Below, in pieces: positions 10,057-39,100 of a stretch of DNA of 64,000 bases. The notes under the pieces were generated by a model. That model saw only the letters and a program-made list of their open reading frames with translations. It was not told where the DNA came from and did no database searches. Position 1 is the stretch's first letter. Every line of letters starts with the position of its first letter. This stretch comes from Bdellovibrionia bacterium (lineage in GTDB: Bacteria > Bdellovibrionota > Bdellovibrionia > Bdellovibrionales > JAGQZY01). The stretch spans positions 9,075 through 73,074 of the forward strand of contig JAUICP010000008.1 in NCBI GenBank assembly GCA_030427805.1. Reading direction: 5' to 3'. A program made the position numbers and the translations under genes.

Positions 10057-10148
10057 GATCTCACTCGACCTTTCTGAAGATTCATATCAGAATGTTCATG
10101 GCAGATTTGGCAGAATTTTGGGAAATTTCTTTTTTTCATCGAGGAATC

Positions 10149-10625
10149 ATGGGCAACAAAAAGCGTTTAAAATCCCCTCTAGACTACCCCGTAACTATAA
10201 AAAAACATACAGATTTTATCGTTTTCCAGGTCCCTGATCTGGGCATTACAATTGTCGAAGAAGCACCCCAGGGAAACAAGATCACACCCAAGTTTATAAA
10301 CAAGATTTCCAAGACTTTGGCCAAGACCTGGCTCAAGTCTTCTGAAAAACTCCATCAATTTCAACTGGCAGACAAGAAGCCTCCCGAACCGAGCCGACAA
10401 CGGCGCCCGATCGAAGAGCGAGAAGAAAAACTCTACACCACCCCCCAGGTCGCAGAACATTTAGGAGTTTCAGAGAATACAGTAAGGCGCCTCGTAAAGC
10501 GCGGCGAATTGGAATGTATTAAAACTTCTGGCAAGCATAGAAGGTTTTCTGAACTTCAAGTGCAAAAGTACGTGAAGCGCCAACGTGAAGCCGTCGAAGC
10601 GGTTCCACTGAGCGAACCGCTTTGA
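10149..10625 (+). CDS. DNA-binding protein: HicB-like N-terminal fold plus C-terminal excisionase/MerR-type HTH
   Basis: YPVTIKKHTDFIVFQVPDLGITIVEEAP resembles HicB antitoxins. LYTTPQVAEHLGVSENTVRRLVKRGEL is an excisionase-family HTH. I chose the ATG at 10149 (AGGA upstream) over the track start at 10092. Confidence 0.55.
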   Translation: MGNKKRLKSPLDYPVTIKKHTDFIVFQVPDLGITIVEEAPQGNKITPKFINKISKTLAKTWLKSSEKLHQFQLADKKPPEPSRQRRPIEEREEKLYTTPQVAEHLGVSENTVRRLVKRGELECIKTSGKHRRFSELQVQKYVKRQREAVEAVPLSEPL

Positions 10626-11625: not shown

Positions 11626-13602
11626 TTAAGACTCCCCTGTCCCACTCAGGATTTCGTTCTTCTTATCGGGCCAGATGTTATCGCTGTACCACTGTTTAAG
11701 AAGTCGATTCTGATTTTCTGAACCTGACTCAACGATTGTTGTGGGCGGTGCGTACTGATCACGCTGAGCACTAGTAAGACCTTCAAGCCAATCACTGAAT
11801 TCCATATCCAAGGCCCGCTTTTCTAGCTCAAGCCTTCTCTTTTTAGCTTCTTCTTTACGCTTGAGGAAGGCTTCAAGAATTTCATCTTCTTCGCTTTTAA
11901 TGTCAGAAAGCACGTCCTCACCTCGAGCTAAACTCTGAACCATCTTTATGAAAAGAGCGGCCTTGTTTCTGACATTGGCAATATTACTCGGGTTAGAAGC
12001 ATAAATAGAAAATCGAGATATAAAGTCTTCTAGTTGCGACTGGCTGACTTGCAACTTTTGGTTTTCGATATCACGCAAATGCTTAGTGGTAATTCCCAAG
12101 TGTTCTATTGCGGTGATTGAGACATCACTGAAATCAGGCTTAGCCGACTCACTTGGTTGTTCCCGGTTTCCTTCCCTAGTAGTTAGTATATTATTACTAA
12201 CTAACTTACTAGAGGGGGTTGACCCTAGTTTTGACCCTAGTTCTGAACCTAGTTTGTTCCCAGTTAATGTGCCCGGTTTGTTCCCAGTATCTAGACTTCC
12301 CTTCTGGTGAAAGAGAAGTTTTGAATAGGCAGCAAGCACCATTGGTGGGATTCCCAAGTATCTGCGGGCGGCAGGTCCCCCCATTCTCAGAGTATTGTTC
12401 ACTACCAAGTTCCTCTTCTTAAGGCGCTTGAGTGTGGTTTTTAACGTTTCAACGTGGATCTCTAGTGACTGGGCTACAAAACTATAGGTTGTTTCAAAAG
12501 GCTCTTGATTGTTCTGGAAACACCTTTCAGCTATATATCTGAAACATCTTTCAGCGTGGCCAGAGAGACTTAATATCTGTTGTTCGAGGTAGAAATTCTC
12601 CTCATTAAGATTCTCTGAAAGGGGCTTCTGTGGCGCCTTTTGAACCGGGTTAATGTTCCCAGTTTGTACTCGGTTTTTGTCCCAGTTTTGACCCCAGTTT
12701 TGAACCTGGTTTGTTCCGGGAACATTCCCAGTTTGTTCCGGGTTTGTTCCTGCTTTTGTACCCTGTTCGTTCCTAGTATTGTTCCCAGTTTGTACCGAGT
12801 CTGTACCTAGTTTGTTCCCAGTTACTTGGTCCCGTATATTTTGATCATTATTTTTATCAGGGATTTCATTGACAGACTCCCCGATTTTTAAATCTCTAAT
12901 TTTCTCTGGAAAAGGCTCTTTATCCTGTACCTGGTTATTGTTCCCAGTTTGTTCCCGGTTAGATGGGGTAGGTAGATCCTTTTCTTGGATGTATTTCTGA
13001 GCAAGCTCCTTCTCTTTAGAAGGCTTATTATGTACCTGGTTTGTACTCGGTTGCTGTTCCCGGTTTGTGCCTAGTTTTTGTTCCGAGTTAGCGCCTGCTT
13101 TATCGGCCACTGTACTTGTGGGCTTACTGCCCTTTTTACTATGAGCTTTGCTTTTGGGGGATTTGTTCCCGGTTTGTTCCGAGTTACTGTTCTCAGTTTT
13201 TGTACTTAGATTATGTACCTGGTTTGTACTCGGTTGCTGTTCCCGGTTTGTACCTAGTTTTTGTTCCTGGTTCTTGTCCTGGTCTTTTTGCTGAGAGCCT
13301 GGGTCACCAACTTGGTTTGTACCTAGTTTTTGTTCCTGGTTTGTGTTCCTGGTTTGTTCCGGGTTAGAACTGGGTACACTTGGTCCTGCCTCACGAGCTT
13401 TGTCCAGGCTAGATTTGCCCTTGTCAGAGGTAGGGGTATCATCTGCGGCCTTCACAGGCGCATCTGCTTCCTCTGCTGGGTTCTCTGTGTTTTCTTGATC
13501 GCCCTTCTGAACGGTACCCAAAATATCATCCATCGACGCCCATGCTTTGCGTCGACGCTTTCTTTTGAGTCCTTCTTTTTTGGGGCCTTCAAAACGCGGC
13601 AT
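11626..13602 (-). CDS. ParA-operon partner: low-complexity Q/N/T/G-rich protein with a central winged-helix-like DNA-binding segment
   Basis: The start lies 20 nt downstream of the parA stop. The N-terminus is basic (KRKRRRK). The central segment YSFVAQSLEIHVETLKTTLKRLKKRNLVV looks wHTH-like and the C-terminus looks coiled-coil. The coding DNA is full of GTTTGT[T/A]CC repeats. Confidence 0.6.
   Translation of the reverse strand: MPRFEGPKKEGLKRKRRRKAWASMDDILGTVQKGDQENTENPAEEADAPVKAADDTPTSDKGKSSLDKAREAGPSVPSSNPEQTRNTNQEQKLGTNQVGDPGSQQKDQDKNQEQKLGTNREQQPSTNQVHNLSTKTENSNSEQTGNKSPKSKAHSKKGSKPTSTVADKAGANSEQKLGTNREQQPSTNQVHNKPSKEKELAQKYIQEKDLPTPSNREQTGNNNQVQDKEPFPEKIRDLKIGESVNEIPDKNNDQNIRDQVTGNKLGTDSVQTGNNTRNEQGTKAGTNPEQTGNVPGTNQVQNWGQNWDKNRVQTGNINPVQKAPQKPLSENLNEENFYLEQQILSLSGHAERCFRYIAERCFQNNQEPFETTYSFVAQSLEIHVETLKTTLKRLKKRNLVVNNTLRMGGPAARRYLGIPPMVLAAYSKLLFHQKGSLDTGNKPGTLTGNKLGSELGSKLGSTPSSKLVSNNILTTREGNREQPSESAKPDFSDVSITAIEHLGITTKHLRDIENQKLQVSQSQLEDFISRFSIYASNPSNIANVRNKAALFIKMVQSLARGEDVLSDIKSEEDEILEAFLKRKEEAKKRRLELEKRALDMEFSDWLEGLTSAQRDQYAPPTTIVESGSENQNRLLKQWYSDNIWPDKKNEILSGTGES
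13028..13267. repeat. 57-bp duplication inside the CDS (13028-13084 and 13211-13267, 1 mismatch), encoding SEQKLGTNREQQPSTNQVHN twice
   Basis: TTATGTACCTGGTTTGTACTCGGTTGCTGTTCCCGGTTTGT(G/A)CCTAGTTTTTGTTCC was read at both positions. Confidence 0.85.
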
Positions 13603-13622
13603 TAAAGTCCAGTCCTATACAG

Positions 13623-14639
13623 CTAAATCATTGGGTCTTGCTGACCAAGAACAGGGGAGTCCATTCCCGCAGAATTCATTCCTTCAGTTTTTTGTTTCTT
13701 CATCGATAGAGCTCCGTCCAAGTCGAGCACCTCACGAGTCAGTAAGTCGATATCCATTTTTGCCGAAGAATCTCTGAGATTATCAAAGAGAGTCACAAGG
13801 CTCGCATTAGCATTGGGTATCTGCTGATTGGTCCCTACATAACTCTTGTAGAGTAGGGGGCCAAAAACTTCGTGTTTGATGAGCATTTCAAGTGTGTCGT
13901 GAGATAAGCTGGTTCGCTTATCAAATTTATTGAGCACAATTCCAATAGGTATTTGCTGGTCGAAATCACTTCCGATGCGGGAGACTTCCTCATAGGTAAA
14001 TTGTAGACCTTTTAGGGCGTTTCGATCGGGATCAACAACCGCAATAACCTTATCCGCGGCCAAAGCTGCGGCCGCATTATTGGAGCCTAGAGCAGGCGGG
14101 CAGTCGAGGACAATTAAATCATAGTCCTCTTCGACGCTGGCCAACCTTTGTGAATAAACTCGGTCCAATCGAATCTTTTTAATCGTTAGGGTGTTCTCAA
14201 GAAGAGCATTGTCCAAATTACTTGGCACAAGGTCTAAGCCTGGAAGAACCGAGACGATAAGATCTTTGAAGTGGACTGTCGGATCTGTAATTGAGTCGAT
14301 GAGGCAAGCGTGCTCATCTCCATCGACGCCGAGAAGATCTGTTAAGTTCCCTTGCTGATCGAGATCAACGCAAAGAACGCGCAATCCATATAAGCTCGCT
14401 CGAATTGCAAAGTTGAGAGCAATAGCGGTTTTGCCAGTCCCTCCCTTTACAATTTGGAAGGCAATCTTCTTTCGCTTGATCGGCAAGTCAAAGATTGTGC
14501 GTGCTGTGTCGTGCCCAAAGTAAAGACGGTTCGCGCTCTTGCGATAATCAACCTCTTTACTTTTTAGGGTTTTGTTTATGGCCTGCAAACTGACGCCTAA
14601 AAAATCGGCGGCATCTTTAGCGGTCATTTTTGGTTCCAT
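13623..14639 (-). CDS. parA: ParA/Soj-family ATPase with an N-terminal HTH extension
   Basis: The deviant Walker A motif is FQIVKGGTGKTAIALNFA, followed by VLCVDLDQQGN. The N-terminal MTAKDAADFLGVSLQAINKTLK is HTH-like. Confidence 0.85.
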   Translation of the reverse strand: MEPKMTAKDAADFLGVSLQAINKTLKSKEVDYRKSANRLYFGHDTARTIFDLPIKRKKIAFQIVKGGTGKTAIALNFAIRASLYGLRVLCVDLDQQGNLTDLLGVDGDEHACLIDSITDPTVHFKDLIVSVLPGLDLVPSNLDNALLENTLTIKKIRLDRVYSQRLASVEEDYDLIVLDCPPALGSNNAAAALAADKVIAVVDPDRNALKGLQFTYEEVSRIGSDFDQQIPIGIVLNKFDKRTSLSHDTLEMLIKHEVFGPLLYKSYVGTNQQIPNANASLVTLFDNLRDSSAKMDIDLLTREVLDLDGALSMKKQKTEGMNSAGMDSPVLGQQDPMI

Positions 14640-14879
14640 GATAAAACCTCTGTTTAAGTTTGGACCTGTTTTTCGTGATTAACTTCAACCACCATGATTA
14701 GATCAAAAAACTCAATGATGTCCAAGATAAAATAAAAAAATAGTGAATAGAGTTTGGGTGGTGAATCTCAAGAGGTTTGCTTAAATGTTAAGCTTCTCTG
14801 ATTTTGAATTATAAAAGCTGACTTATCAAGCAGTGCTGAAAGTGTTGGCAATCGCAAAGCTGAAGTTCAGATATCAAGA

Positions 14880-20931: not shown

Positions 20932-22779
20932 ATGTTTAGGCCCATTCATATTTTTGATTTGCAGGCAACTTCTACGTCTCCGGCCTATGGATATATCATT
21001 GAATTTGCCCATGCTTATTACGATCGAGAGCTATCTCAATGGAAGAAGACCGTAGAATTTGTTAAGTTGCCTAAGGACGAGGAATTACCTCGGCACATTC
21101 AAAAAATAACGGGAATCACAGAAGAGGATTTGGCTTGTGGGTGGTCGCAATCGAAGCTCAAATCCTATGTGAAAAACCTAGTCGAGTCGCAGCCTGAGGC
21201 TTTGTATGTCAGTCACTACGCCCAGTTTGAAAAAGCCTTTATTCGGGACCTATTGAGCAAGAAAACTTTTGAATCCATGGAGTGGCTTTGTACACATAAG
21301 TTGTCCAAATTGATATATCCCTTTTTGCCGAGTCACAGTTTAAGAGCCGCTGCTGGCCATGCGGGTTTTTCTTTGGGGGCCTTAAAGAGATCCCATGGCC
21401 AACTCGATGCCAATATTTTTTTATGGCAAAAACTTTATCGAGAAATGAAGGAGCAATTTGCCCTTGAATCTTATGGGGAGCTCGAGGCGTGGATTCCGAA
21501 AAGAAAAAAAGATATTAAGATAATCTATCAAGAGAAGGGGCTCAGTAAGAAGTATTTGAAGATTTCAGATAAGGAGAGATTATCTCTTCCCGATGCCCCT
21601 GGTGTTTATCGGTTTTACAGTGTGGACGGTCGCCTTCTATACATCGGAAAGGCAAAAAGTCTAAAGACGAGAGTAAATAGTTATTTTACAGGCAACCCCA
21701 AGAGGCTTGGTAGGAAGGCGGAGTTGGTTATTCAAATTGCTCGGATTGAATTCGATGTATTGAACACGCCAGTAGAGTCAGCCCTTTACGAGTGCCTGAA
21801 AATCAAGGCCTTTGATCCGCCCTATAATCAGGCGTTGACTCCGAGAAAGCAGAAGCACCTTTATGGATATGATCGAGATCTCAATGCACATCAGGTGGAA
21901 GGAGTCGGGTGCGTGAGTTCGGGCTCCGGAGGTGAGGGTGTCGCGGGAGTTGAGCGCGTGAGTTCGGGGCCTGGAAGTGTGAGAGGTGCGGGAGTTGAGA
22001 GCGTGAGTTCAGGGTCCAGAAGTGCGGGTCGGAATTTACTATTGAGTTTGAAGGCCAGTGAGTTTGAGAGTCTCGATTTTTTACTGAGCTACTACCAGGG
22101 TGCCGGCCTTTCAGAGGAGATTCTTTTTGGTTTTGCTGAGGAGTCGGTCATCGAAGAGGCGATAGAGCTTTTTTATGAAGAGTATCCTCAACTAAAGTCG
22201 GCCGGATCTAAGCGTGACCTACTCGCTTGGTGCTATTCAGTTTTTTTAGATTCGCGCAGCGATTTTGATGAGGACATAGAGGCCATTGAAGATATCGATG
22301 ATGACGAGGATTTGATTGAAGAGATTGAAGAAACTGATTTTGAAAATCCAGAGGACGTAAAGCTAAGTCTCTACAATGTTTGTGCTCATATCGCAAAATC
22401 CCACATGAAAATGAAGTTAATTGGGAGGCTTTTGGATTCCCGCATTCACCTATGTGATGGCAATGAATCGGCTTTGAACTTCGAACTGCAGGATGGGCGA
22501 ATAAAAACTGATTCGAAGGTGGCGTCGGGTTCAGGTTTTTCGCTGGATGCGGAGTTGGAATCAGAGTCGTCGCGAGGTGCGGGGGCGGATTCTGATCTGT
22601 GGGCTGATTTTCAGAAGTTGAGTTCTGCCGATTCATTTGAGTGGTTGCGAGTTTTTTTAACAGAGATTTTTCGTATTCATCGAAGCGAAGCGCCCCATAC
22701 ATGGGTTAAAGTCGAATATCTCACTTCGAATGGTCAGTATCGACCTCTGAATCTCGATTTTTGGTGCCGCTACTTATAG
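20932..22779 (+). CDS. Cho-like nuclease: degenerate DEDD (DnaQ-like) exonuclease domain plus GIY-YIG (UvrC N-terminal-type) domain plus a long divergent C-terminal region
   Basis: The GIY-YIG motif is GVYRFYSVDGRLLYIGKAKSLKTRVNSYF ... ESALYECLKIKAFDPPYNQ. In the exonuclease domain, Exo I reads FDLQAT (Gln where Glu is expected), Exo II reads HYAQFEKAF and Exo III reads HGQLDA. I chose the ATG at 20932, 5-6 nt after AAAAGGAG, over the GTG at 20926. Confidence 0.8.
   Translation: MFRPIHIFDLQATSTSPAYGYIIEFAHAYYDRELSQWKKTVEFVKLPKDEELPRHIQKITGITEEDLACGWSQSKLKSYVKNLVESQPEALYVSHYAQFEKAFIRDLLSKKTFESMEWLCTHKLSKLIYPFLPSHSLRAAAGHAGFSLGALKRSHGQLDANIFLWQKLYREMKEQFALESYGELEAWIPKRKKDIKIIYQEKGLSKKYLKISDKERLSLPDAPGVYRFYSVDGRLLYIGKAKSLKTRVNSYFTGNPKRLGRKAELVIQIARIEFDVLNTPVESALYECLKIKAFDPPYNQALTPRKQKHLYGYDRDLNAHQVEGVGCVSSGSGGEGVAGVERVSSGPGSVRGAGVESVSSGSRSAGRNLLLSLKASEFESLDFLLSYYQGAGLSEEILFGFAEESVIEEAIELFYEEYPQLKSAGSKRDLLAWCYSVFLDSRSDFDEDIEAIEDIDDDEDLIEEIEETDFENPEDVKLSLYNVCAHIAKSHMKMKLIGRLLDSRIHLCDGNESALNFELQDGRIKTDSKVASGSGFSLDAELESESSRGAGADSDLWADFQKLSSADSFEWLRVFLTEIFRIHRSEAPHTWVKVEYLTSNGQYRPLNLDFWCRYL
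21901..22032. repeat. In-frame 45-bp tandem repeat (about 2.9 copies), GC-rich, inside the Cho-like CDS
   Basis: The units encode GVGCVSSGSGGEGVA / GVERVSSGPGSVRGA / GVESVSSGSRSAG. Confidence 0.85.
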
Positions 22780-22858
22780 GTTTATTCCCGTGCATAAAGG
22801 TTTATTTATGCGCAAATAGGTTTATTCCCGTGCATAAAGGTTTATTCCCGTTGCGAAA
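22778..22858. repeat. Four tandem 20-bp units AGGTTTATTCCCGTGCATAA (units 1 and 3 identical, units 2 and 4 variant), able to form hairpins
   Basis: Read directly. The array starts at the stop codon of the Cho-like gene. GCATAAA-GGTTTA-TTTATGC forms a 7-bp stem. TAGGTTT(T/A)TT recurs at about 22901 and 22966. Confidence 0.85.
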
Positions 22859-34670: not shown

Positions 34671-36169
34671 GGGCCAGTTTAGTTTGTATCTTCACCTCTC
34701 TGGCTTTGCTGTCGTTTGCCTTTGGGCAAACACCAACTCCTAGTCCGAGTCCTGAGAGCAAAAGTCGCGACACTTCTAAACCACAAGCAAAAAGCCAAGA
34801 GGTTAAGACACCCTATTCGTATATCCCTACTAATGAAAAGTTTTGGAACAAAATGAAAGAGCTTTGGGATGAAAAGAAATATAAATTTGCAATTGAGCAA
34901 GCGAGTAAAAGAGTTGGTGACCTGCAGACCAACCAACAAAAAGAAGCTCTTCTCGCCGTTGGAATTAGCTTGCGCAATGCTGGCTATCCGGCATCGGCGG
35001 GACTCGTCCTACTAGAAACTCTCAAAAATTCAATTGGTTCGGCGATTAGTGAGCTCAGCCTAGTTCACCTTGACGAACTTTACCGTAGGGACATGGTTCA
35101 TCAGGCTTTCTTAGATGATGTGATTGTTGCGACTGCTGTCGAAAGCACCCACTGGGCCAATCAAGCTTTCATCGGGAAGCTTCGTTCGAGCTATGCACTC
35201 AAGTTTGGATTAGTTGACTGGTATAAAAAAGAAGTAGAGAAAGTCGTCGAAGAAAGTTATTGGGCTAAATACTATCAGTACTTAAAGGCGCTGAGTCTAA
35301 TAACTCGCGGTGAAGTCGAAAAAGGTTACTCACTCATAGGAGAAATGTATGAGGACGAAACCATTGTTGACCCCCTAAAGCAAAAAATCGGTTTGCAACA
35401 AGCACGAATTTTGTTTGAGAAAAGAGAGTTCGAAAAGGCATTAGGGATCTATCAAAAATTGGAATTGCCATTGCGAGAGTGGGGGCGAAGTCTCTATGAG
35501 CAAGCGTGGGCTCTTTATTACCTCAAACGATATGACAAAGCCTTGGGAGTCTTGCAAGCAGCAAAAACCAAGTACTTTTCAGCTTCTCCGAGTTTAGAAA
35601 GTCACCTTTTAGAAATCATTATTTTCAAGGACCTCTGTCACTATAAAAGAGTTGATCTTTTGGCCAAGGATTTTAGAACTTTTTATAAGGATGCCTTTCG
35701 AGCGATTCGCAAAAGACAAGATTTAGGTGGAGTGCCTACCTTGGCCAGGATTTCATTGTTAAACAACTATCTGCAGGATGAGGCCAATCTAGCCTCTCAA
35801 GTGCGAAAAGAAAAGAATACCCTCAAAGAGCTGAGCAAATCTTTTACCCAATATAAAGGATTAGTGAATGAGCTAGGGCTTTTGGAGTCTGAAATTCAAG
35901 AAGCACTTAACATTGAAGTTCAAAGTAGTGCCCGCGGGGTTGCCAATGAGCTTCTCGATATTGAAGAGCAAATTCTATTTCTAGAATATACGGCCAAACT
36001 TGATGCCCTGAGAATTGCTGCGATAACCAATGAAAAGCCCTATGCTTCAGAGGAGAAGCCGACGACGAGTTTTGATCGCTTTTACTGGCCAGTGGATCGC
36101 GAAAAGTGGCTCGATGAGCTTAAAGATTACAAAGTTCTAATAAAGAGTAAGTGTTTTGATAAAAAGTAA
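34667..36169 (+). CDS. Secreted TPR-like repeat protein (GltE/AglT-like?)
   Basis: There is a signal peptide. Helical repeats show the TPR-like pattern A..Y...G.Y..A (e.g. FEKALGIYQKL, YDKALGVLQAA). Confidence 0.5.
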   Translation: MRASLVCIFTSLALLSFAFGQTPTPSPSPESKSRDTSKPQAKSQEVKTPYSYIPTNEKFWNKMKELWDEKKYKFAIEQASKRVGDLQTNQQKEALLAVGISLRNAGYPASAGLVLLETLKNSIGSAISELSLVHLDELYRRDMVHQAFLDDVIVATAVESTHWANQAFIGKLRSSYALKFGLVDWYKKEVEKVVEESYWAKYYQYLKALSLITRGEVEKGYSLIGEMYEDETIVDPLKQKIGLQQARILFEKREFEKALGIYQKLELPLREWGRSLYEQAWALYYLKRYDKALGVLQAAKTKYFSASPSLESHLLEIIIFKDLCHYKRVDLLAKDFRTFYKDAFRAIRKRQDLGGVPTLARISLLNNYLQDEANLASQVRKEKNTLKELSKSFTQYKGLVNELGLLESEIQEALNIEVQSSARGVANELLDIEEQILFLEYTAKLDALRIAAITNEKPYASEEKPTTSFDRFYWPVDREKWLDELKDYKVLIKSKCFDKK

Positions 36170-39100
36170 ATGGTTTTCTCTAATACTAACTTTCCTTTTT
36201 AGCGTCTGTGTTTTTGGACAAACGGATACTATGTCTGTGGATGAGCTAGAAAGTGACCTTGAGAAAGTCGACACTAAGCTTGAACAGACGAGGGCGAGAA
36301 TTCAAGAGATAAAGGATGTTCGCTTCCTTCCAGACCTTTATTTTATGCTCGCCGAGTTTTATGTATCAAAGAGCCGCTACCAGTATCAAATTAAGTTAAA
36401 AGAAAACGAAGGAGTTCCATTAGAGGAAGTCGACTTCACCCTCGAAAAGAAACCCAAGTTCAAGGCCATTGAGACCTACCAATCTATTGTCGAACGGTTT
36501 CCAAAACTTAAATACGCCGACAAAGCTTTGTTTTATATGGCCCACGAATTTAGAGAGCTGGGTCAATTCGATCAGATGATTGCTACTTATTCGCGCCTTA
36601 CGAGAGAATACCCTAAGAGTGAGTTTTATCCCGAGAGTAAAATTATATTGGGAGACTACGAGTTTAATACTCAGAAGAATATTCGCAAAGCGCTCGGTCA
36701 TTTTAAGGATCTTCTTAAAAGAAAGACTACGGCCTTTACAGCTTTAGCGAGTTATCGAGCTGGATGGTGCTACATCAATTTGCGCTATTTCAAGAACGCC
36801 TTTTATGCCTTCGAAAAAGTTTTAACTGACTATGCGGAGCTCGATCTATCTGAACTTCCGGATCTTTATAAGAAGACAGATATCAAACAAGACGCCCTTT
36901 TAGCTATGGTATGGCCATACAGTGAGATTACTAGAGCTGAGTTTATAAAGATGGGCAAAGGTCGTCATGAGGTCATTGAATACTTTAGAAGACTATCGCC
37001 GACATTGCAGATGTATTTGAAGGTCATGTCTAAATTGGCGCGAAGACTGGTTCTTAAAAAGAGAAATACTTTGGCGACTCGTGTTTATTTTGAACTTTTG
37101 CGACTCTCTCCAGATCTCGATAGCCGTGTTACTTTTGTACCTGAAGTCTATAAAACCTTTCGTAATTCCCAAAGGGATTGGCCATTTTATGGCTTTGTTC
37201 GGGAAATTGCAAAAACAGCGATTCGAGCACGATATTCGCGGGTCTATACTGAACAAGAGAAAAAGAAGATCGACAATGATTATGAGATATTTGCTCGTGA
37301 TATCGCTACGCGCTTACAGAAACAAGCTAGAGAAACGGGTAAAGAGTTCGATTATCTTATGGCAATTGCTGCCTATAAGTCATACCTCAATGCTTTTGAT
37401 GGTTCTAAGTATTCGGCAAAAGTGAGACTGAACCTTGCTGAGAGCTTTTTTAATATAAAGGACTATATAAACGCGGGTAAAGAATATGGTGACCTTGCCA
37501 GACGAGTTAATAGTAGCAAGATGAAGAAGAGTTTACTAAAGTCTTCAATTGAGTCCTATTCTCTGGCTTTAAAGGCGACACTGGATCTCAGCCGTCTTGA
37601 AATTACTGAAGCCCGGGAAGGACTTAGAGAATCGGGAATTAGCTTTCTTAAGCGATTCAAGAAAGACAATTCAACTCCGAGTATTATCCTTAACCTTGGG
37701 CAGACCTATTATGACGAAAGGTCTTTTGATAAAGCCCAAAAAACATTTAGAGCCTTCATTCGCCTTTTCCCAAATAATTCCTCGTTGTCTCTCGTCGTAA
37801 ACCTATTGATCGATACCTATCGCCAACAAGAAGACATTGATGGTCTCATTAAACAGGTGAAAACCCTCATTAAAAATAAATCGATTCGAATAGCTAGCGT
37901 CAGAAATACCTTACAGCAAATTCTTCAGCAAGCCGAGATTCGCAAGGTTCAAGACGATAATGATGATCCCACTGAATACGGTAAAAATCTTCTTAAGCTG
38001 GCGCAAAAATATAAGGGGAGTGAAGTCGGTGATAAGGCTCTCTTTGAAGCCTTTCAAACATTCAAGGCAAAAAAAGATCAGAGAGCTTTTGCTGTGGGAG
38101 AAAAGCTCTTAGCAAACCACTCGAAATCTAAATACGCCAAAGAGGTGGTAACCCAGCTGGGTCAGTTGTCGTTGCTAAATGCTGACTTGCGCAGAGCCTC
38201 ACTCTATTTTGAAGTTTTTTACAATAAATATCCTAACGACAGGCAAGCCAAAGAGCTCTTGCTAACAGCTGCCCAATTTAGAAAATCTCTGGGTGACTAT
38301 CGTTTTGCGGCGACCAATTTTAAACGGCTGGGGCAGAATAATGAAGTTGCTGAGTCCCATTATCTTGCACAAGATTGGTCGAGTCTTTTGCGTAGTGCTA
38401 CTAATGTTGGTGGTCTAAAGAGTGTCTATTGGCGTGGTCTTGCCGCCTATCGCTTGCAAAAAACGAGAGAGGCCCTGCCACTTCTTAAAAAGGTGAGTCA
38501 AAGTAGTTCGAAGTCAGTTGAAGAAAAAACGATGATTGCCCATTCACTCTACATCGTTTCACTTGGTACCCTTCGTGAATTTGATGCGGTTCAAATCAGA
38601 AGAGGAAACGAGGCCGCAGCTGTAAATAGAAAGGCGCAACTTCTGCAAGAGCTGACTCAGACCTTTCAAAAGGTGATCGGTCTTGGCGATGGAACTTGGA
38701 CCGTTGCTTCTTTTTATAGCTTGGGGCAAACATACCTGAATTTTGCAGAGTTTATTGCCAATTCACCCATTCCCAAGGGATTTCCAAAGAAACAAGTCGC
38801 TCTCTATAAGAGGGAATTAAAAAAGCAATCGAGTCAGTATGCCGAAGCGGCGGCTGGATACTTTACCCAGTGTATCGAGGTGAGCAGAAAGTATAATATT
38901 TTTACGGCCTTTACCAAGGGTTGTCTCTCGGGTGGAAAGAAGAAGGTTACGGAGATAGAAGCCCTTGGATCTCCGGCAAAAGCGGGTGATTTAGCCATCG
39001 CTGAAGCCTCTCGATTGCGCCGATCTTTGCTGGATAAGCCACGGGATATAGGAACCCTAATCGAACTGAGTCGCGTTCACGTCGAAGCTAAGGACTATCA

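What the first reader, a model, noticed from the sequence alone, without database searches (positions are those of the whole stretch)
11626..14639. ParA operon partner whose coding DNA carries the 9-mer GTTTGT[T/A]CC in all three reading frames
An HTH-ParA ATPase gene (13623-14639) is followed 20 nt later by a 658-aa ORF with a central winged-helix-like segment flanked by Q/N/T/G-rich tracts. On the plus strand between about 12215 and 13375 I count at least 13 exact GTTTGT[T/A]CC and roughly as many one-mismatch variants. There is also a 57-bp duplication (13028-13084 / 13211-13267). The same nucleotide motif is translated in different frames. GTTTGTTCC at 12252-12260 encodes G-N-K (within TGNKL). 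The identical 9-mer at 12947-12955 encodes R-E-Q-T. GTTTGTACC at 13246-13254 encodes G-T-N. Frame-independent recurrence indicates that the DNA motif, not a peptide repeat, is what is maintained or propagated. One possibility is an intragenic array of binding sites (centromere/parS-like or iteron-like) for the ParA partner. Another is a slippage-prone repeat that generates variable low-complexity tracts.
Basis: partly seen in the sequence, partly recalled or inferred. Interest (0 to 1): 0.7.

Follow-up and report, generated by a model that had tools for sequence, protein, structure and literature searches.

The report
Replication origin hidden inside its initiator gene
The repeated 9-mer is real. 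It is the core of ~11-bp protein-binding repeats (iterons) written into the coding DNA of a large, unannotated family of ParA-linked plasmid initiator-like proteins, and here it sits exactly where the replicon's GC skew changes sign.

Summary
They are read in all three frames (GTN / GNK / xEQT). Synonymous-codon shuffles give 0.6-1.4.

X belongs to a family of more than 2,000 protein clusters with no Pfam or NCBIfam model. It almost always lies directly after a ParA gene, on plasmids of Bdellovibrionota, Legionella, Piscirickettsia and others.

Every member examined has arrays of about 11-bp DNA units on both sides of the winged-helix-coding segment. The unit sequence is replicon-specific. The typical plasmid members then carry an invariant (AGT)n / AT-rich / (ACT)n palindrome; the window keeps only a degenerate copy.

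In five replicons the gene's own unit recurs in non-coding arrays. In this lineage that array lies at 22778-22851.

The window's cumulative G-C minimum falls at 12,956, inside the array. Family members weakly but recurrently match phage replication-initiation (O-like, DnaD-like) profiles. Three complete small plasmids carry ParA + X and no recognisable Rep.

Best reading: an iteron origin embedded in its initiator gene, as with lambda O and ori-lambda, possibly doubling as the ParA partition site. No binding or replication assay exists.

The parts
13623..14639 (-). ParA-type Walker ATPase with a short N-terminal HTH-like extension; first gene of the two-gene operon
   Evidence: Pfam AAA_31 8e-32 and CbiA 9e-16. 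NCBIfam ParA_partition, RepA and SopA hits are all below their cut-offs. HTH_17 is only 0.066. A ParA homologue lies directly upstream of X-family hits in 40 of 55 cases; 5 more are at contig ends.
11626..13602 (-). Gene X: 658-aa protein made of a disordered N-terminal region, a winged helix, a disordered linker and a helical C-terminal domain; putative iteron-binding initiator and ParA partner
   Evidence: No Pfam or NCBIfam hit. AF2 model. The family has 2,185 clusters at E<=1e-3. Among 60 members, the recurrent PHROG hits with an assigned function are replication initiation, O-like or DnaD-like loader; the window protein itself gives no hit.
12638..13360 (+). Array 1: about 30 units related to GTTTGTWCC (coding strand GGWACAAAC), spaced 11, 13 and 24 bp; encodes the disordered region N-terminal to the winged helix
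   Evidence: TRF periods are 11, 12, 13 and 24. Identity at lags 11-13 and 24 is 0.35-0.38, against about 0.28 at other lags.
13027..13272 (+). 63-nt duplication inside array 1 (13027-13089 and 13210-13272, 95% identical)
   Evidence: family D2. Assembly unitigs of public runs break exactly here.
12289..12609 (-). Segment encoding the winged helix-turn-helix (aa 332-438); free of repeats
   Evidence: AF2 pLDDT 80-89. Foldseek top hits are MarR, ArsR and SmtB wHTH proteins. Weak MarR, DnaD_N and HTH_36 Pfam hits recur across family members.
12219..12284 (+). Array 2: units directly downstream (in gene sense) of the wHTH-coding segment, with 12- and 24-bp spacing (TGNKPGTLTGNKLGSELGSKLGS)
   Evidence: Its position is conserved across the aligned family members (consensus ETGNKLGTNxEQTGNKLGxQxGTxxGT).
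12176..12212 (.). Imperfect palindrome CTAGTAAGTTAGTTAGTA-ATAATA-TACTAACTACTAG. It is the degenerate counterpart of the family's CCC-(AGT)3-4 / AT-rich 12-30 nt / (ACT)3-4 element, translated as SSSS...TTTT
   Evidence: DNA fold; here it folds no better than shuffles (z -0.7). In 7 protein-ascertained members, Ser-run codons are AGT 25/27 (21% elsewhere in the same genes) and Thr-run codons are ACT 22/23 (32% elsewhere). A scan of 596 Gb for the DNA pattern gave 68 loci, 41 of them inside X-family genes.
11647..12135 (-). Segment encoding the all-helical C-terminal domain (aa ~490-652)
   Evidence: AF2 pLDDT 92.7 when modelled alone with 22 sequences. No PDB fold match: best Foldseek E = 8.5. 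No PDB or Pfam sequence match.
22778..22851 (+). Non-coding tandem array, 3.7 x 20 bp (AGGTTTATTCCCGTGCATAA). Each unit carries an iteron-like 12-mer, GGTTTATTCCCG, in the same orientation as the intragenic units
   Evidence: GGTTTRTTCCCG at <=1 mismatch gives 9 hits in the window (0.5 expected): 6 in gene X and 3 here. The orthologous position in a related MAG (L006) has 7 perfect 20-bp units containing the exact GGTTTGTTCCCG.
11950..14500 (.). GC-skew sign change of origin polarity (negative to the left, positive to the right)
   Evidence: The global minimum of cumulative G-C in the 64-kb window is at 12,956. The best step-change breakpoint is 11,950. Third-codon-position skew flips here for genes on both strands.

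Best explanation
Gene X encodes the replicon's iteron-binding initiator. It has a winged helix remotely related to phage O-like and DnaD-like replication initiators, plus a novel helical C-terminal domain.

Its cis-acting sites are written into its own coding sequence. Two arrays of ~11-bp direct repeats (core GGWACAAAC on the sense strand) flank the wHTH-coding segment. In typical members these are followed by a (AGT)n / AT-rich / (ACT)n palindrome that could serve as the unwinding element.

Because 11 is not a multiple of 3, successive units are translated in all three frames (GTN-x-EQT-GNK-L). The resulting peptides are hydrophilic and predicted to be disordered, so the protein tolerates them as linkers.

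X bound to phased iterons would bend or open the DNA and start bidirectional replication at this point. The same X-iteron complexes, including the non-coding 20-bp array at 22.8 kb, probably give the co-transcribed ParA its cargo-binding partner.

Shown: the DNA-level repeat, its family-wide conservation, the replicon-specific units shared with non-coding arrays, the skew switch, and the ParA linkage.

Inferred: that X binds the units, that the origin fires here, and the roles of the palindrome and of ParA.
For: 1. DNA-level constraint.
- Window: 12 motifs against 0.6-1.4 under synonymous shuffles.
- Relatives: L001 10 vs 1.5, L007 7 vs 2.2, L008 10 vs 2.25; L005 9 vs 1.0, L009 6 vs 1.0.
- The codon before [EVGA]Q[TIM] ends in G in 34 of 45 cases, against 19% background.
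- Lag 11 is the strongest nucleotide autocorrelation lag in 30 of 35 family genes, with harmonics at 22 and 33; there is no such signal in the C-terminal-coding part.

2. Each replicon has its own ~11-bp unit, for example GGGAACAAACT, GGACACAAACC, CTGGCAACAAA, CTTAGTACAAA and TTGAGCCAAAG. Units occur in all three frames. Where the wHTH anchor motif was found, they lie on both sides of the wHTH-coding segment. Peptide variants co-vary as expected from single-base changes in the unit: GNK/EQT, GYK/VQT, GDK/GQT, GHK.

3. The gene's own unit recurs in non-coding DNA in five replicons.
- This lineage: window 22778-22851, and 7 perfect copies in L006.
- L. anisa plasmid: at least 9 pairs of TTGTGAACCNT in an AT-rich 1-kb intergenic region upstream of parA with a perfect DnaA box, plus tandem copies inside the X-like gene.
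- L013, upstream of parA, and L039 and L032.

4. Origin evidence.
- The window's cumulative G-C minimum is at 12,956, and GC3 skew flips here irrespective of gene strand.
- Skew minima fall at parA-X in L013 (a 183-kb conjugative plasmid) and L009, and next to the repeat region in the L. anisa plasmid.
- Skew changes sign across the parA-X position in L010, where the gene itself was not cleanly delimited.

5. Initiator evidence.
- Of 60 members scanned against PHROGs: phrog_428 and phrog_270 'replication initiation protein' in 16 and 12 members, phrog_678 and phrog_391 'O-like' in 12 and 8, and phrog_186 'DnaD-like helicase loader' in 7.
- One unannotated family, phrog_9088, recurs at a similar rate (14 members).
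- Weak DnaD_N, HTH_36 and Phage_rep_O Pfam hits.

6. Three complete small plasmids carry ParA + X and no recognisable Rep.
- pBdHAGR4, 11.9 kb.
- A P. salmonis 33-kb plasmid.
- A 10,739-bp circle recovered as a concatemer, in which X and ParA are the only proteins above 129 aa.
- PMC6963756 states that no replication initiator could be found in P. salmonis pPSLF89-1, -2 and -3.

7. Precedent. Ori-lambda lies within gene O, with iterons next to an AT-rich region, and plasmid iterons are phased with the helical repeat (PMC5043065).
Against: - There is no experimental binding or replication data for any family member.
- The window protein itself gives no PHROG or Pfam hit. The initiator homology rests on weak hits (best 1e-7), confined largely to the wHTH region of other members.
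- The C-terminal domain has no known fold match.
- The near-universal position directly after ParA, often with overlapping stop and start codons, is what is expected of a centromere-binding partner, not of a classical Rep.
- The window's arrays are degenerate (mixed 11/13/24 spacing). Its palindrome folds no better than shuffles (z -0.7) and its AT-rich spacer is only 6 nt.
- There is no DnaA-box excess near the locus.
- GC-skew switches in L007 and L011 do not coincide with X.
- Skew in all-plus-strand plasmids such as L016 is confounded with transcription.
- In L. anisa a second HTH protein next to the iterons could be the Rep.
Confidence: 0.62

Rival explanations
1. Partition site only. X is a novel winged-helix centromere-binding partner of ParA. 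The intragenic arrays, and the 22.8-kb array, are its centromere and operator, and replication starts from a separate, unrecognised origin nearby.
For: - X follows ParA directly in about 40 of 55 hits, often with overlapping stop and start codons.
- No other candidate partner gene is conserved next to ParA.
- The N-termini are Lys/Arg-rich (MPRFEGPKKEGLKRKRRRK), like the ParA-stimulating peptides of known partners (own knowledge).
- Contiguous 11-bp direct repeats in two blocks resemble parC of plasmid R1 (own knowledge).
- In L013 and the L. anisa plasmid the units lie upstream of parA, where type Ib centromere-operators sit.
Against: - The wHTH matches replication-initiator profiles, not ParB, ParG or ParR.
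- Three complete plasmids would then have no initiator at all.
- The skew minimum falls inside the array in the window.
- This reading does not explain the conserved (AGT)n / AT-rich / (ACT)n element.
- It is not exclusive of the best explanation: a dual role is possible.
Confidence: 0.25
2. Peptide-level or neutral repeat. The tracts are slippage-generated low-complexity linkers. The DNA identity among units reflects recent expansion and concerted evolution, not a DNA function.
For: - The N-terminal tract evolves fast. All 19 differences between P0001 and its 98% orthologue lie in the first 270 residues.
- There is a recent 63-nt duplication.
- AF2 predicts disorder across the tracts.
Against: - The 11-bp phasing, the two-array layout and the palindrome are kept across homologues at about 20% identity.
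- The same unit occurs in non-coding arrays in five replicons.
- AGT and ACT codon choice in the Ser and Thr runs is nearly invariant.
- No length polymorphism was seen.
Confidence: 0.04
3. RNA-level element. The repeats and the (AGU)n/(ACU)n hairpin act in the mRNA, for example in translational pausing, attenuation or antisense control of X synthesis.
For: - The palindrome forms a stable hairpin in typical members (z -2.9 to -4.3).
- All units are on the sense strand.
- The antisense frames across the arrays are open.
Against: - The non-coding arrays upstream of parA and at 22.8 kb are not in the X mRNA.
- An RNA role does not predict the 11-bp helical phasing or the skew switch.
- No Rfam or covariation test was run.
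Confidence: 0.05

Closest known systems
Bacteriophage lambda O protein and ori-lambda
   Same: The origin lies inside the initiator's own gene, in the part encoding a flexible region next to the DNA-binding domain. Multiple initiator-binding repeats sit next to an AT-rich segment. Family members hit 'replication initiation O-like' PHROGs (PMC5043065).
   Different: Lambda has four 19-bp inverted-repeat iterons bound by dimers on one side of the domain boundary. Here there are 5-30 direct ~11-bp units in two arrays flanking the wHTH-coding segment, read in three frames. The C-terminal domain is unrelated to anything solved. The partner gene is ParA, not a P-type helicase loader.
Iteron plasmids (RK2 TrfA, F RepE, P1 RepA, pSC101) and Vibrio cholerae chromosome 2 RctB
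   Same: Replicon-specific direct repeats are phased with the DNA helix. Extra iteron clusters lie outside the origin and could act in control. In V. cholerae chr2 the initiator-binding repeats are 11- and 12-mers (own knowledge; PMC5043065, PMC6090056).
   Different: Those iterons are intergenic and mostly 17-22 bp, and the initiators are WH1-WH2 Rep_3-type or RctB proteins. No sequence or fold match to them was found.
RepA_N plasmids (pAD1 type) and repABC RepC, with the origin inside the rep gene
   Same: The origin is embedded in the initiator's coding sequence. repABC also places a ParA-type gene in the same operon as the initiator (own knowledge, not tested here).
   Different: No homology to RepA_N or RepC. 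repABC has a separate ParB (RepB). Repeats in RepA_N genes are reported as in-frame (own knowledge), not frame-shifting 11-mers.
parC/ParR of plasmid R1 and other short-repeat centromeres (TubR/tubC, omega heptads)
   Same: Two blocks of contiguous ~11-bp direct repeats are bound cooperatively on one face of the helix, and a wHTH binder (as in TubR) sits next to a segregation NTPase gene (own knowledge).
   Different: Those centromeres are intergenic. The motors are ParM or TubZ and the binders are RHH or small wHTH proteins. Here the motor is a Walker ParA and the binder is a 420-660-aa initiator-like protein.
Basal unwinding system of oriC (DnaA-trios and DnaD recognition element)
   Same: In typical family members, the phase-shifted reading of CCC-(AGT)4 is GC-cluster-(TAG)3-4-TAA. 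That is 3'-GAT-5' trios followed by AT-rich DNA. (ACT)n supplies repeated 5'-TnnT-3' (PMC10201434).
   Different: No DnaA boxes adjoin it in the window. The element is a perfect palindrome and lies in coding DNA, and the window's copy is degenerate. The resemblance is by sequence only and is untested.

Membership tests
Initiator gene with embedded iteron origin (lambda O / ori-lambda type) | Initiator protein homologous to O-like or DnaD-like replication initiators | tested here: inconclusive
   Of 60 family members, 16, 12, 12, 8 and 7 hit replication-initiation, O-like or DnaD-like PHROGs (best 1e-7). The window protein itself has no hit. Pfam hits to DnaD_N, HTH_36 and Phage_rep_O are all below cut-off.
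Initiator gene with embedded iteron origin (lambda O / ori-lambda type) | Multiple initiator-binding repeats inside the initiator's coding sequence | tested here: met
   The repeats are present and are maintained at the DNA level. Binding by X itself cannot be tested with these tools.
Initiator gene with embedded iteron origin (lambda O / ori-lambda type) | AT-rich unwinding region next to the repeats | tested here: inconclusive
   Typical members have a 12-30-nt AT-rich spacer between (AGT)n and (ACT)n directly after array 2. In the window the spacer is only ATAATA, within a 37-nt AT-rich imperfect palindrome.
Initiator gene with embedded iteron origin (lambda O / ori-lambda type) | Replication actually starts there | tested here: inconclusive
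   As a proxy, the GC-skew minimum is at 12,956 in the window and at or near parA-X in L013, L009 and the L. anisa plasmid. It is not there in L007 or L011.
Type I (ParA/ParB/parS) partition system | Walker-type ParA ATPase | tested here: met
   AAA_31 8e-32 and CbiA 9e-16. All NCBIfam ParA equivalogs are below cut-off.
Type I (ParA/ParB/parS) partition system | Downstream partner with a ParB (HTH/ParB-N) or RHH (ParG/omega) fold | tested here: not met
   No ParB or RHH domain by Pfam or NCBIfam. The fold is a MarR/ArsR-like wHTH plus a novel helical domain.
Type I (ParA/ParB/parS) partition system | Cis-acting centromere repeats bound by the partner | not testable with these tools
   Candidate sites exist, both intragenic and at 22778-22851. 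Binding and partition activity are untested.
Type II parMRC (R1 parC 11-bp iterons) | Actin-like ParM motor and RHH ParR | tested here: not met
   The adjacent NTPase is a Walker ParA and the binder is a wHTH.
Rep_3 / RepA_N / RepC / TrfA plasmid initiators | Sequence membership in the Pfam or NCBIfam family | tested here: not met
   No hits at E<=0.1 for X. No PDB sequence match for family profiles.
oriC basal unwinding system (DnaA box + DnaA-trios) | DnaA boxes adjacent to at least 3 tandem 3'-GAT-5' trios | tested here: not met
   (TAG)3-4 is present in typical members. The window has no DnaA box at <=1 mismatch near the element and no excess overall (14 vs 13.6 expected).

The most novel reading that the evidence does not exclude
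A 'replicon in a gene'. A single, widespread, unannotated protein family acts both as plasmid or chromid replication initiator and as the ParA partition adaptor. Its origin (iterons plus a trinucleotide-palindrome unwinding element) and its centromere are encoded within its own ORF and translated in three frames as disordered linkers. In one Pseudobdellovibrionaceae lineage this cassette is the working origin of a replicon that carries hemB and other cellular genes.
Probability: 0.3. Interest if true: 0.9.

Novelty: new variant of a known kind. Interest (0 to 1): 0.78.

Why it matters
- It would assign a function to a family of more than 2,000 protein clusters that has no Pfam or NCBIfam model (members with source names are annotated 'hypothetical protein' or 'predicted transcriptional regulator').
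- It would supply the missing replication module for plasmids of Piscirickettsia, Legionella, Bdellovibrio and many uncultured lineages, for which the literature says no initiator can be found (PMC6963756).
- It is an unusually clear natural case of dual coding. A protein-binding DNA array with helical (11-bp) phasing is superimposed on an ORF, so the same site is read in all three frames. This gives a direct way to separate DNA-level from protein-level selection.
- The replicon-specific units offer a sequence-based incompatibility typing scheme for these plasmids.
- The cassette is a compact candidate replicon for genetic tools in Bdellovibrionota.
- The locus also marks a plasmid-type origin on a replicon carrying a haem-biosynthesis gene, hemB. 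That bears on how chromids arise.

Tried and rejected
- Pfam and NCBIfam on X: nothing.
- Profile search of PDB sequences with the whole-protein and C-domain alignments: nothing meaningful.
- Foldseek of the C-terminal domain (pLDDT 92.7): no match.
- Foldseek of the full model: only generic MarR/ArsR wHTH hits.
- tblastn of two members against 50,697 phage records: no match.
- My guess that the C-domain is a DnaD/DnaB_2 domain: not supported by Pfam on 22 C-domain fragments.
- An iteron copy in the parA promoter (14658-14666, 1 mismatch): not conserved in the 52% orthologue, so dropped.
- DnaA boxes: no excess.
- Promoter and terminator scans of the locus: at or below shuffle expectation.
- Length polymorphism or phase variation: none in the 98% orthologue or in contigs of four metagenome runs. 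Only unitig breaks at the 63-nt duplication were seen.
- Contig word-depths are flat, so they cannot show an origin-centred coverage gradient.
- Literature searches for an earlier description of intragenic 11-bp iterons or of this family: nothing found. The held library is incomplete.
- The search for related loci with the full alignment failed for lack of conserved stretches.

Full report
**1. The observation**

The two genes lie on the minus strand. A ParA-type ATPase occupies 13623-14639. After a 20-nt gap comes a 658-aa ORF at 11626-13602, here called X.

The pattern GTTTGTWCC occurs 12 times in the 64-kb window, not "at least 13". Every copy is on the + strand and every copy lies within 12252-13360. 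Dinucleotide shuffles expect 0.94. Allowing one mismatch, 24 copies lie in the gene.

On the coding strand the motif is GGWACAAAC. It is read as GTN (frame 0, four copies), GNK (frame 1, three copies) and xEQT/VQT (frame 2, five copies). The duplication is also real: 13027-13089 and 13210-13272 are 95% identical over 63 nt.

Tandem Repeats Finder reports periods of 11, 12, 13 and 24. The 9-mer is therefore the core of an ~11-13-bp unit, which is why the reading frame rotates from one unit to the next.

**2. DNA or peptide?**

I permuted synonymous codons within the gene while keeping the protein sequence. This gives 1.40 motifs on average, with a maximum of 5 in 1000 trials. Drawing codons from the window's other genes gives 0.60. 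The observed number is 12.

The same excess holds in relatives:
- the 72% orthologue, 10 vs 1.5;
- the 52% orthologue, 9 vs 1.0;
- homologues at 22-27% identity, 7 vs 2.2 and 10 vs 2.25, and 6 vs 1.0.

The residue before EQT varies widely (R, W, K, G, P, S, Q). Its codon nevertheless ends in G in 34 of 45 cases, against 19% for all codons. That is what a fixed DNA unit predicts and what a fixed peptide does not.

Across 35 family genes, lag 11 is the strongest nucleotide autocorrelation in 30, with harmonics at 22 and 33. The C-terminal-coding part shows no such signal. Reading frames other than the real one across the arrays even score against the family HMM.

**3. The family**

A word-indexed search found only about 20 relatives. 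An exhaustive profile search of 1.84 billion representatives found 2,185 clusters at E<=1e-3 and 918 at E<=1e-30. None has a Pfam, NCBIfam or PDB sequence match. Where sources name the protein, it is "hypothetical protein" or "predicted transcriptional regulator".

All members share one plan:
- a basic N-terminus;
- repeat tract 1;
- a winged helix;
- repeat tract 2, with consensus ETGNKLGTNxEQTGNKLGxQxGTxxGT;
- a Ser run, a short spacer and a Thr run;
- a helical C-terminal domain.

AlphaFold models the two tracts as disordered and the wHTH and C-domain with confidence. The wHTH resembles MarR/ArsR proteins. The C-domain matches nothing solved.

The peptide repeats differ between members. Each set is the three-frame reading of that member's own ~11-bp unit, for example GGGAACAAACT, GGACACAAACC (read as GHKLDTNRTQT), CTGGCAACAAA, CTTAGTACAAA and TTGAGCCAAAG. 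Most units keep a CAAA core next to a variable part.

**4. A second conserved DNA element**

In seven members found by protein similarity alone, the Ser run is AGT in 25 of 27 codons, against 21% of other Ser codons in the same genes. The Thr run is ACT in 22 of 23 codons, against 32%.

(AGT)n and (ACT)n are reverse complements. The SSSS...TTTT peptide is therefore the translation of a palindrome with a 12-30-nt AT-rich centre, usually preceded by CCC. It folds as a strong hairpin in typical members (z down to -4.3).

I scanned 596 Gb of genomes for (AGT)4-N9-36-(ACT)4. This returned 68 loci, and 41 of them lie inside X-family genes.

Read one base out of phase, the left arm is GC-cluster-(TAG)3-4-TAA. 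That matches the published DnaA-trio consensus, 3'-GAT-5'. The right arm supplies repeated 5'-TnnT-3', the DnaD recognition element (PMC10201434). This is a resemblance only.

The window keeps a degenerate version at 12176-12212: CTAGTAAGTTAGTTAGTA-ATAATA-TACTAACTACTAG.

**5. The same units in non-coding DNA**

GGTTTRTTCCCG at up to one mismatch occurs 9 times in the window, against 0.5 expected. Six copies are in gene X. Three are in a 3.7-copy 20-bp tandem array in the intergenic DNA at 22778-22851, in the same orientation.

At the orthologous place in a related MAG there are seven perfect 20-bp units. Each contains the exact intragenic GGTTTGTTCCCG.

In a complete Legionella anisa conjugative plasmid, a short X-like gene follows parA. 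Its unit, TTGTGAACCNT, occurs in tandem inside the gene. It also occurs as at least nine pairs in a 1-kb, 29%-GC intergenic region upstream of parA that contains a perfect DnaA box.

Gene-specific units also recur outside the gene in L013 (upstream of parA), L039 and L032.

So five replicons, each with a different unit, share that unit between the gene and nearby untranslated DNA. I regard this as the strongest evidence that the units are cis-acting protein-binding sites.

**6. Origin or centromere?**

Evidence for an origin:
- The cumulative G-C curve of the window has its global minimum at 12,956, inside array 1. The best step-change breakpoint is 11,950. Third-position skew changes sign at X for genes on either strand.
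- Skew minima coincide with parA-X in a 183-kb conjugative plasmid (L013) and in L009. Skew also changes sign across the parA-X position in L010, where the gene itself was not cleanly delimited. In the L. anisa plasmid the minimum lies next to the repeat region.
- L007 and L011 show no switch at X.
- Among 60 diverse members, the recurrent PHROG hits that carry a function are replication-initiation families: phrog_428 in 16 members, phrog_270 in 12, O-like phrog_678 in 12 and phrog_391 in 8, and the DnaD-like loader phrog_186 in 7. One unannotated family, phrog_9088, recurs at a similar rate (14 members).
- Three complete small plasmids have ParA and X but no recognisable Rep: pBdHAGR4, a 33-kb P. 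salmonis plasmid, and a 10,739-bp circle assembled as a concatemer, in which X and ParA are the only proteins longer than 129 aa.
- The literature on P. salmonis plasmids states that no initiator could be identified (PMC6963756).

Evidence for a centromere:
- X follows ParA directly in about 40 of 55 hits, often with overlapping stop and start codons.
- No other partner gene is conserved beside ParA.
- The N-terminus is Lys/Arg-rich.

The two roles are not exclusive. I favour an initiator with an embedded origin (0.62), probably also serving ParA. The pure-centromere reading follows at about 0.25.

**7. Comparison with known systems**

The nearest analogue is lambda O and ori-lambda. There the origin lies within the initiator gene, with iterons beside an AT-rich region (PMC5043065). 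This system differs in several ways:
- the units are direct repeats of ~11 bp;
- there are two arrays, flanking the segment that encodes the DNA-binding domain;
- the units are translated in three frames;
- there is a trinucleotide palindrome;
- the C-terminal domain is unrelated to any known fold;
- the gene forms an operon with ParA.

It is not a member of the Rep_3, RepA_N, RepC, TrfA, ParB, ParG or ParR families.

**8. Context and limits**

The window comes from a Pseudobdellovibrionaceae-like organism. The synteny hemB-parA-X is kept in MAGs at 52-98% identity. The remaining genes in the window look cellular rather than plasmid-like: a DinG-like helicase, a GGDEF protein, TPR proteins and a sulfatase. 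The replicon is therefore a chromosome or a chromid, and I cannot tell which.

Public metagenome contigs show no indel variation in the arrays.

Everything about binding, origin firing and ParA interaction is inference from sequence.

Noticed in passing
window 22778-22851; L006 576-707: A non-coding 20-bp tandem array carries the iteron-like 12-mer. There are 3.7 copies (GGTTTATTCCCG) in the window and 7 perfect copies (GGTTTGTTCCCG) in a related MAG. Copy number and one base therefore differ between close relatives.
   Followed up: yes
L008 (ena ERZ26051472 contig_8), offset 10,739: The 27.9-kb contig is a perfect concatemer of a 10,739-bp circle (100% identity over 1,040 nt). It is a complete small plasmid in which ParA and X are the only proteins above 129 aa. 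Its cumulative skew minimum lies about 0.5 kb upstream of parA.
   Followed up: partly
L008 769-1039 and 11508-11778; L046 1060-1321; L005 5499-5679: ORFs in alternative reading frames across the repeat arrays score significantly against the family HMM (down to E = 2e-20). This shows directly that the arrays encode similar peptides in all three frames.
   Followed up: no
L086 (L. anisa NZ_CP082854.1) 34678-36805: The 1-kb AT-rich intergenic region contains iteron pairs and a perfect DnaA box (TTATCCACA). It is flanked by a divergent 358-aa wHTH protein that could be a separate initiator. The X-like gene there is only 240 aa and lacks the C-terminal domain.
   Followed up: partly
window 14640-14760 (upstream of parA): A sequence block is conserved among four orthologous loci: TATTTTATCTTGGACA...GTTTTTTGATCTAAT...GGTGGTTGAAGTT. 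It is probably the operon promoter or operator. It contains GATC but no conserved iteron.
   Followed up: partly
window 10092-10625 (+): A 177-aa protein has an excisionase/MerR-type HTH_17 domain (9e-15). It keeps its place two genes downstream of X in all orthologous loci, so it may be part of the module or a remnant of a mobile element.
   Followed up: no
L004 / L006 (MAG JAUHWN01) and Logan unitigs at window 13039-13251: Assemblies break inside gene X at the repeats. X genes are therefore likely to be under-represented or truncated in short-read MAGs.
   Followed up: no
L013 12242-13234: In the 183-kb conjugative plasmid, a KfrA_N protein follows parA-X. This is another plasmid-maintenance protein adjacent to the cassette.
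   Followed up: no
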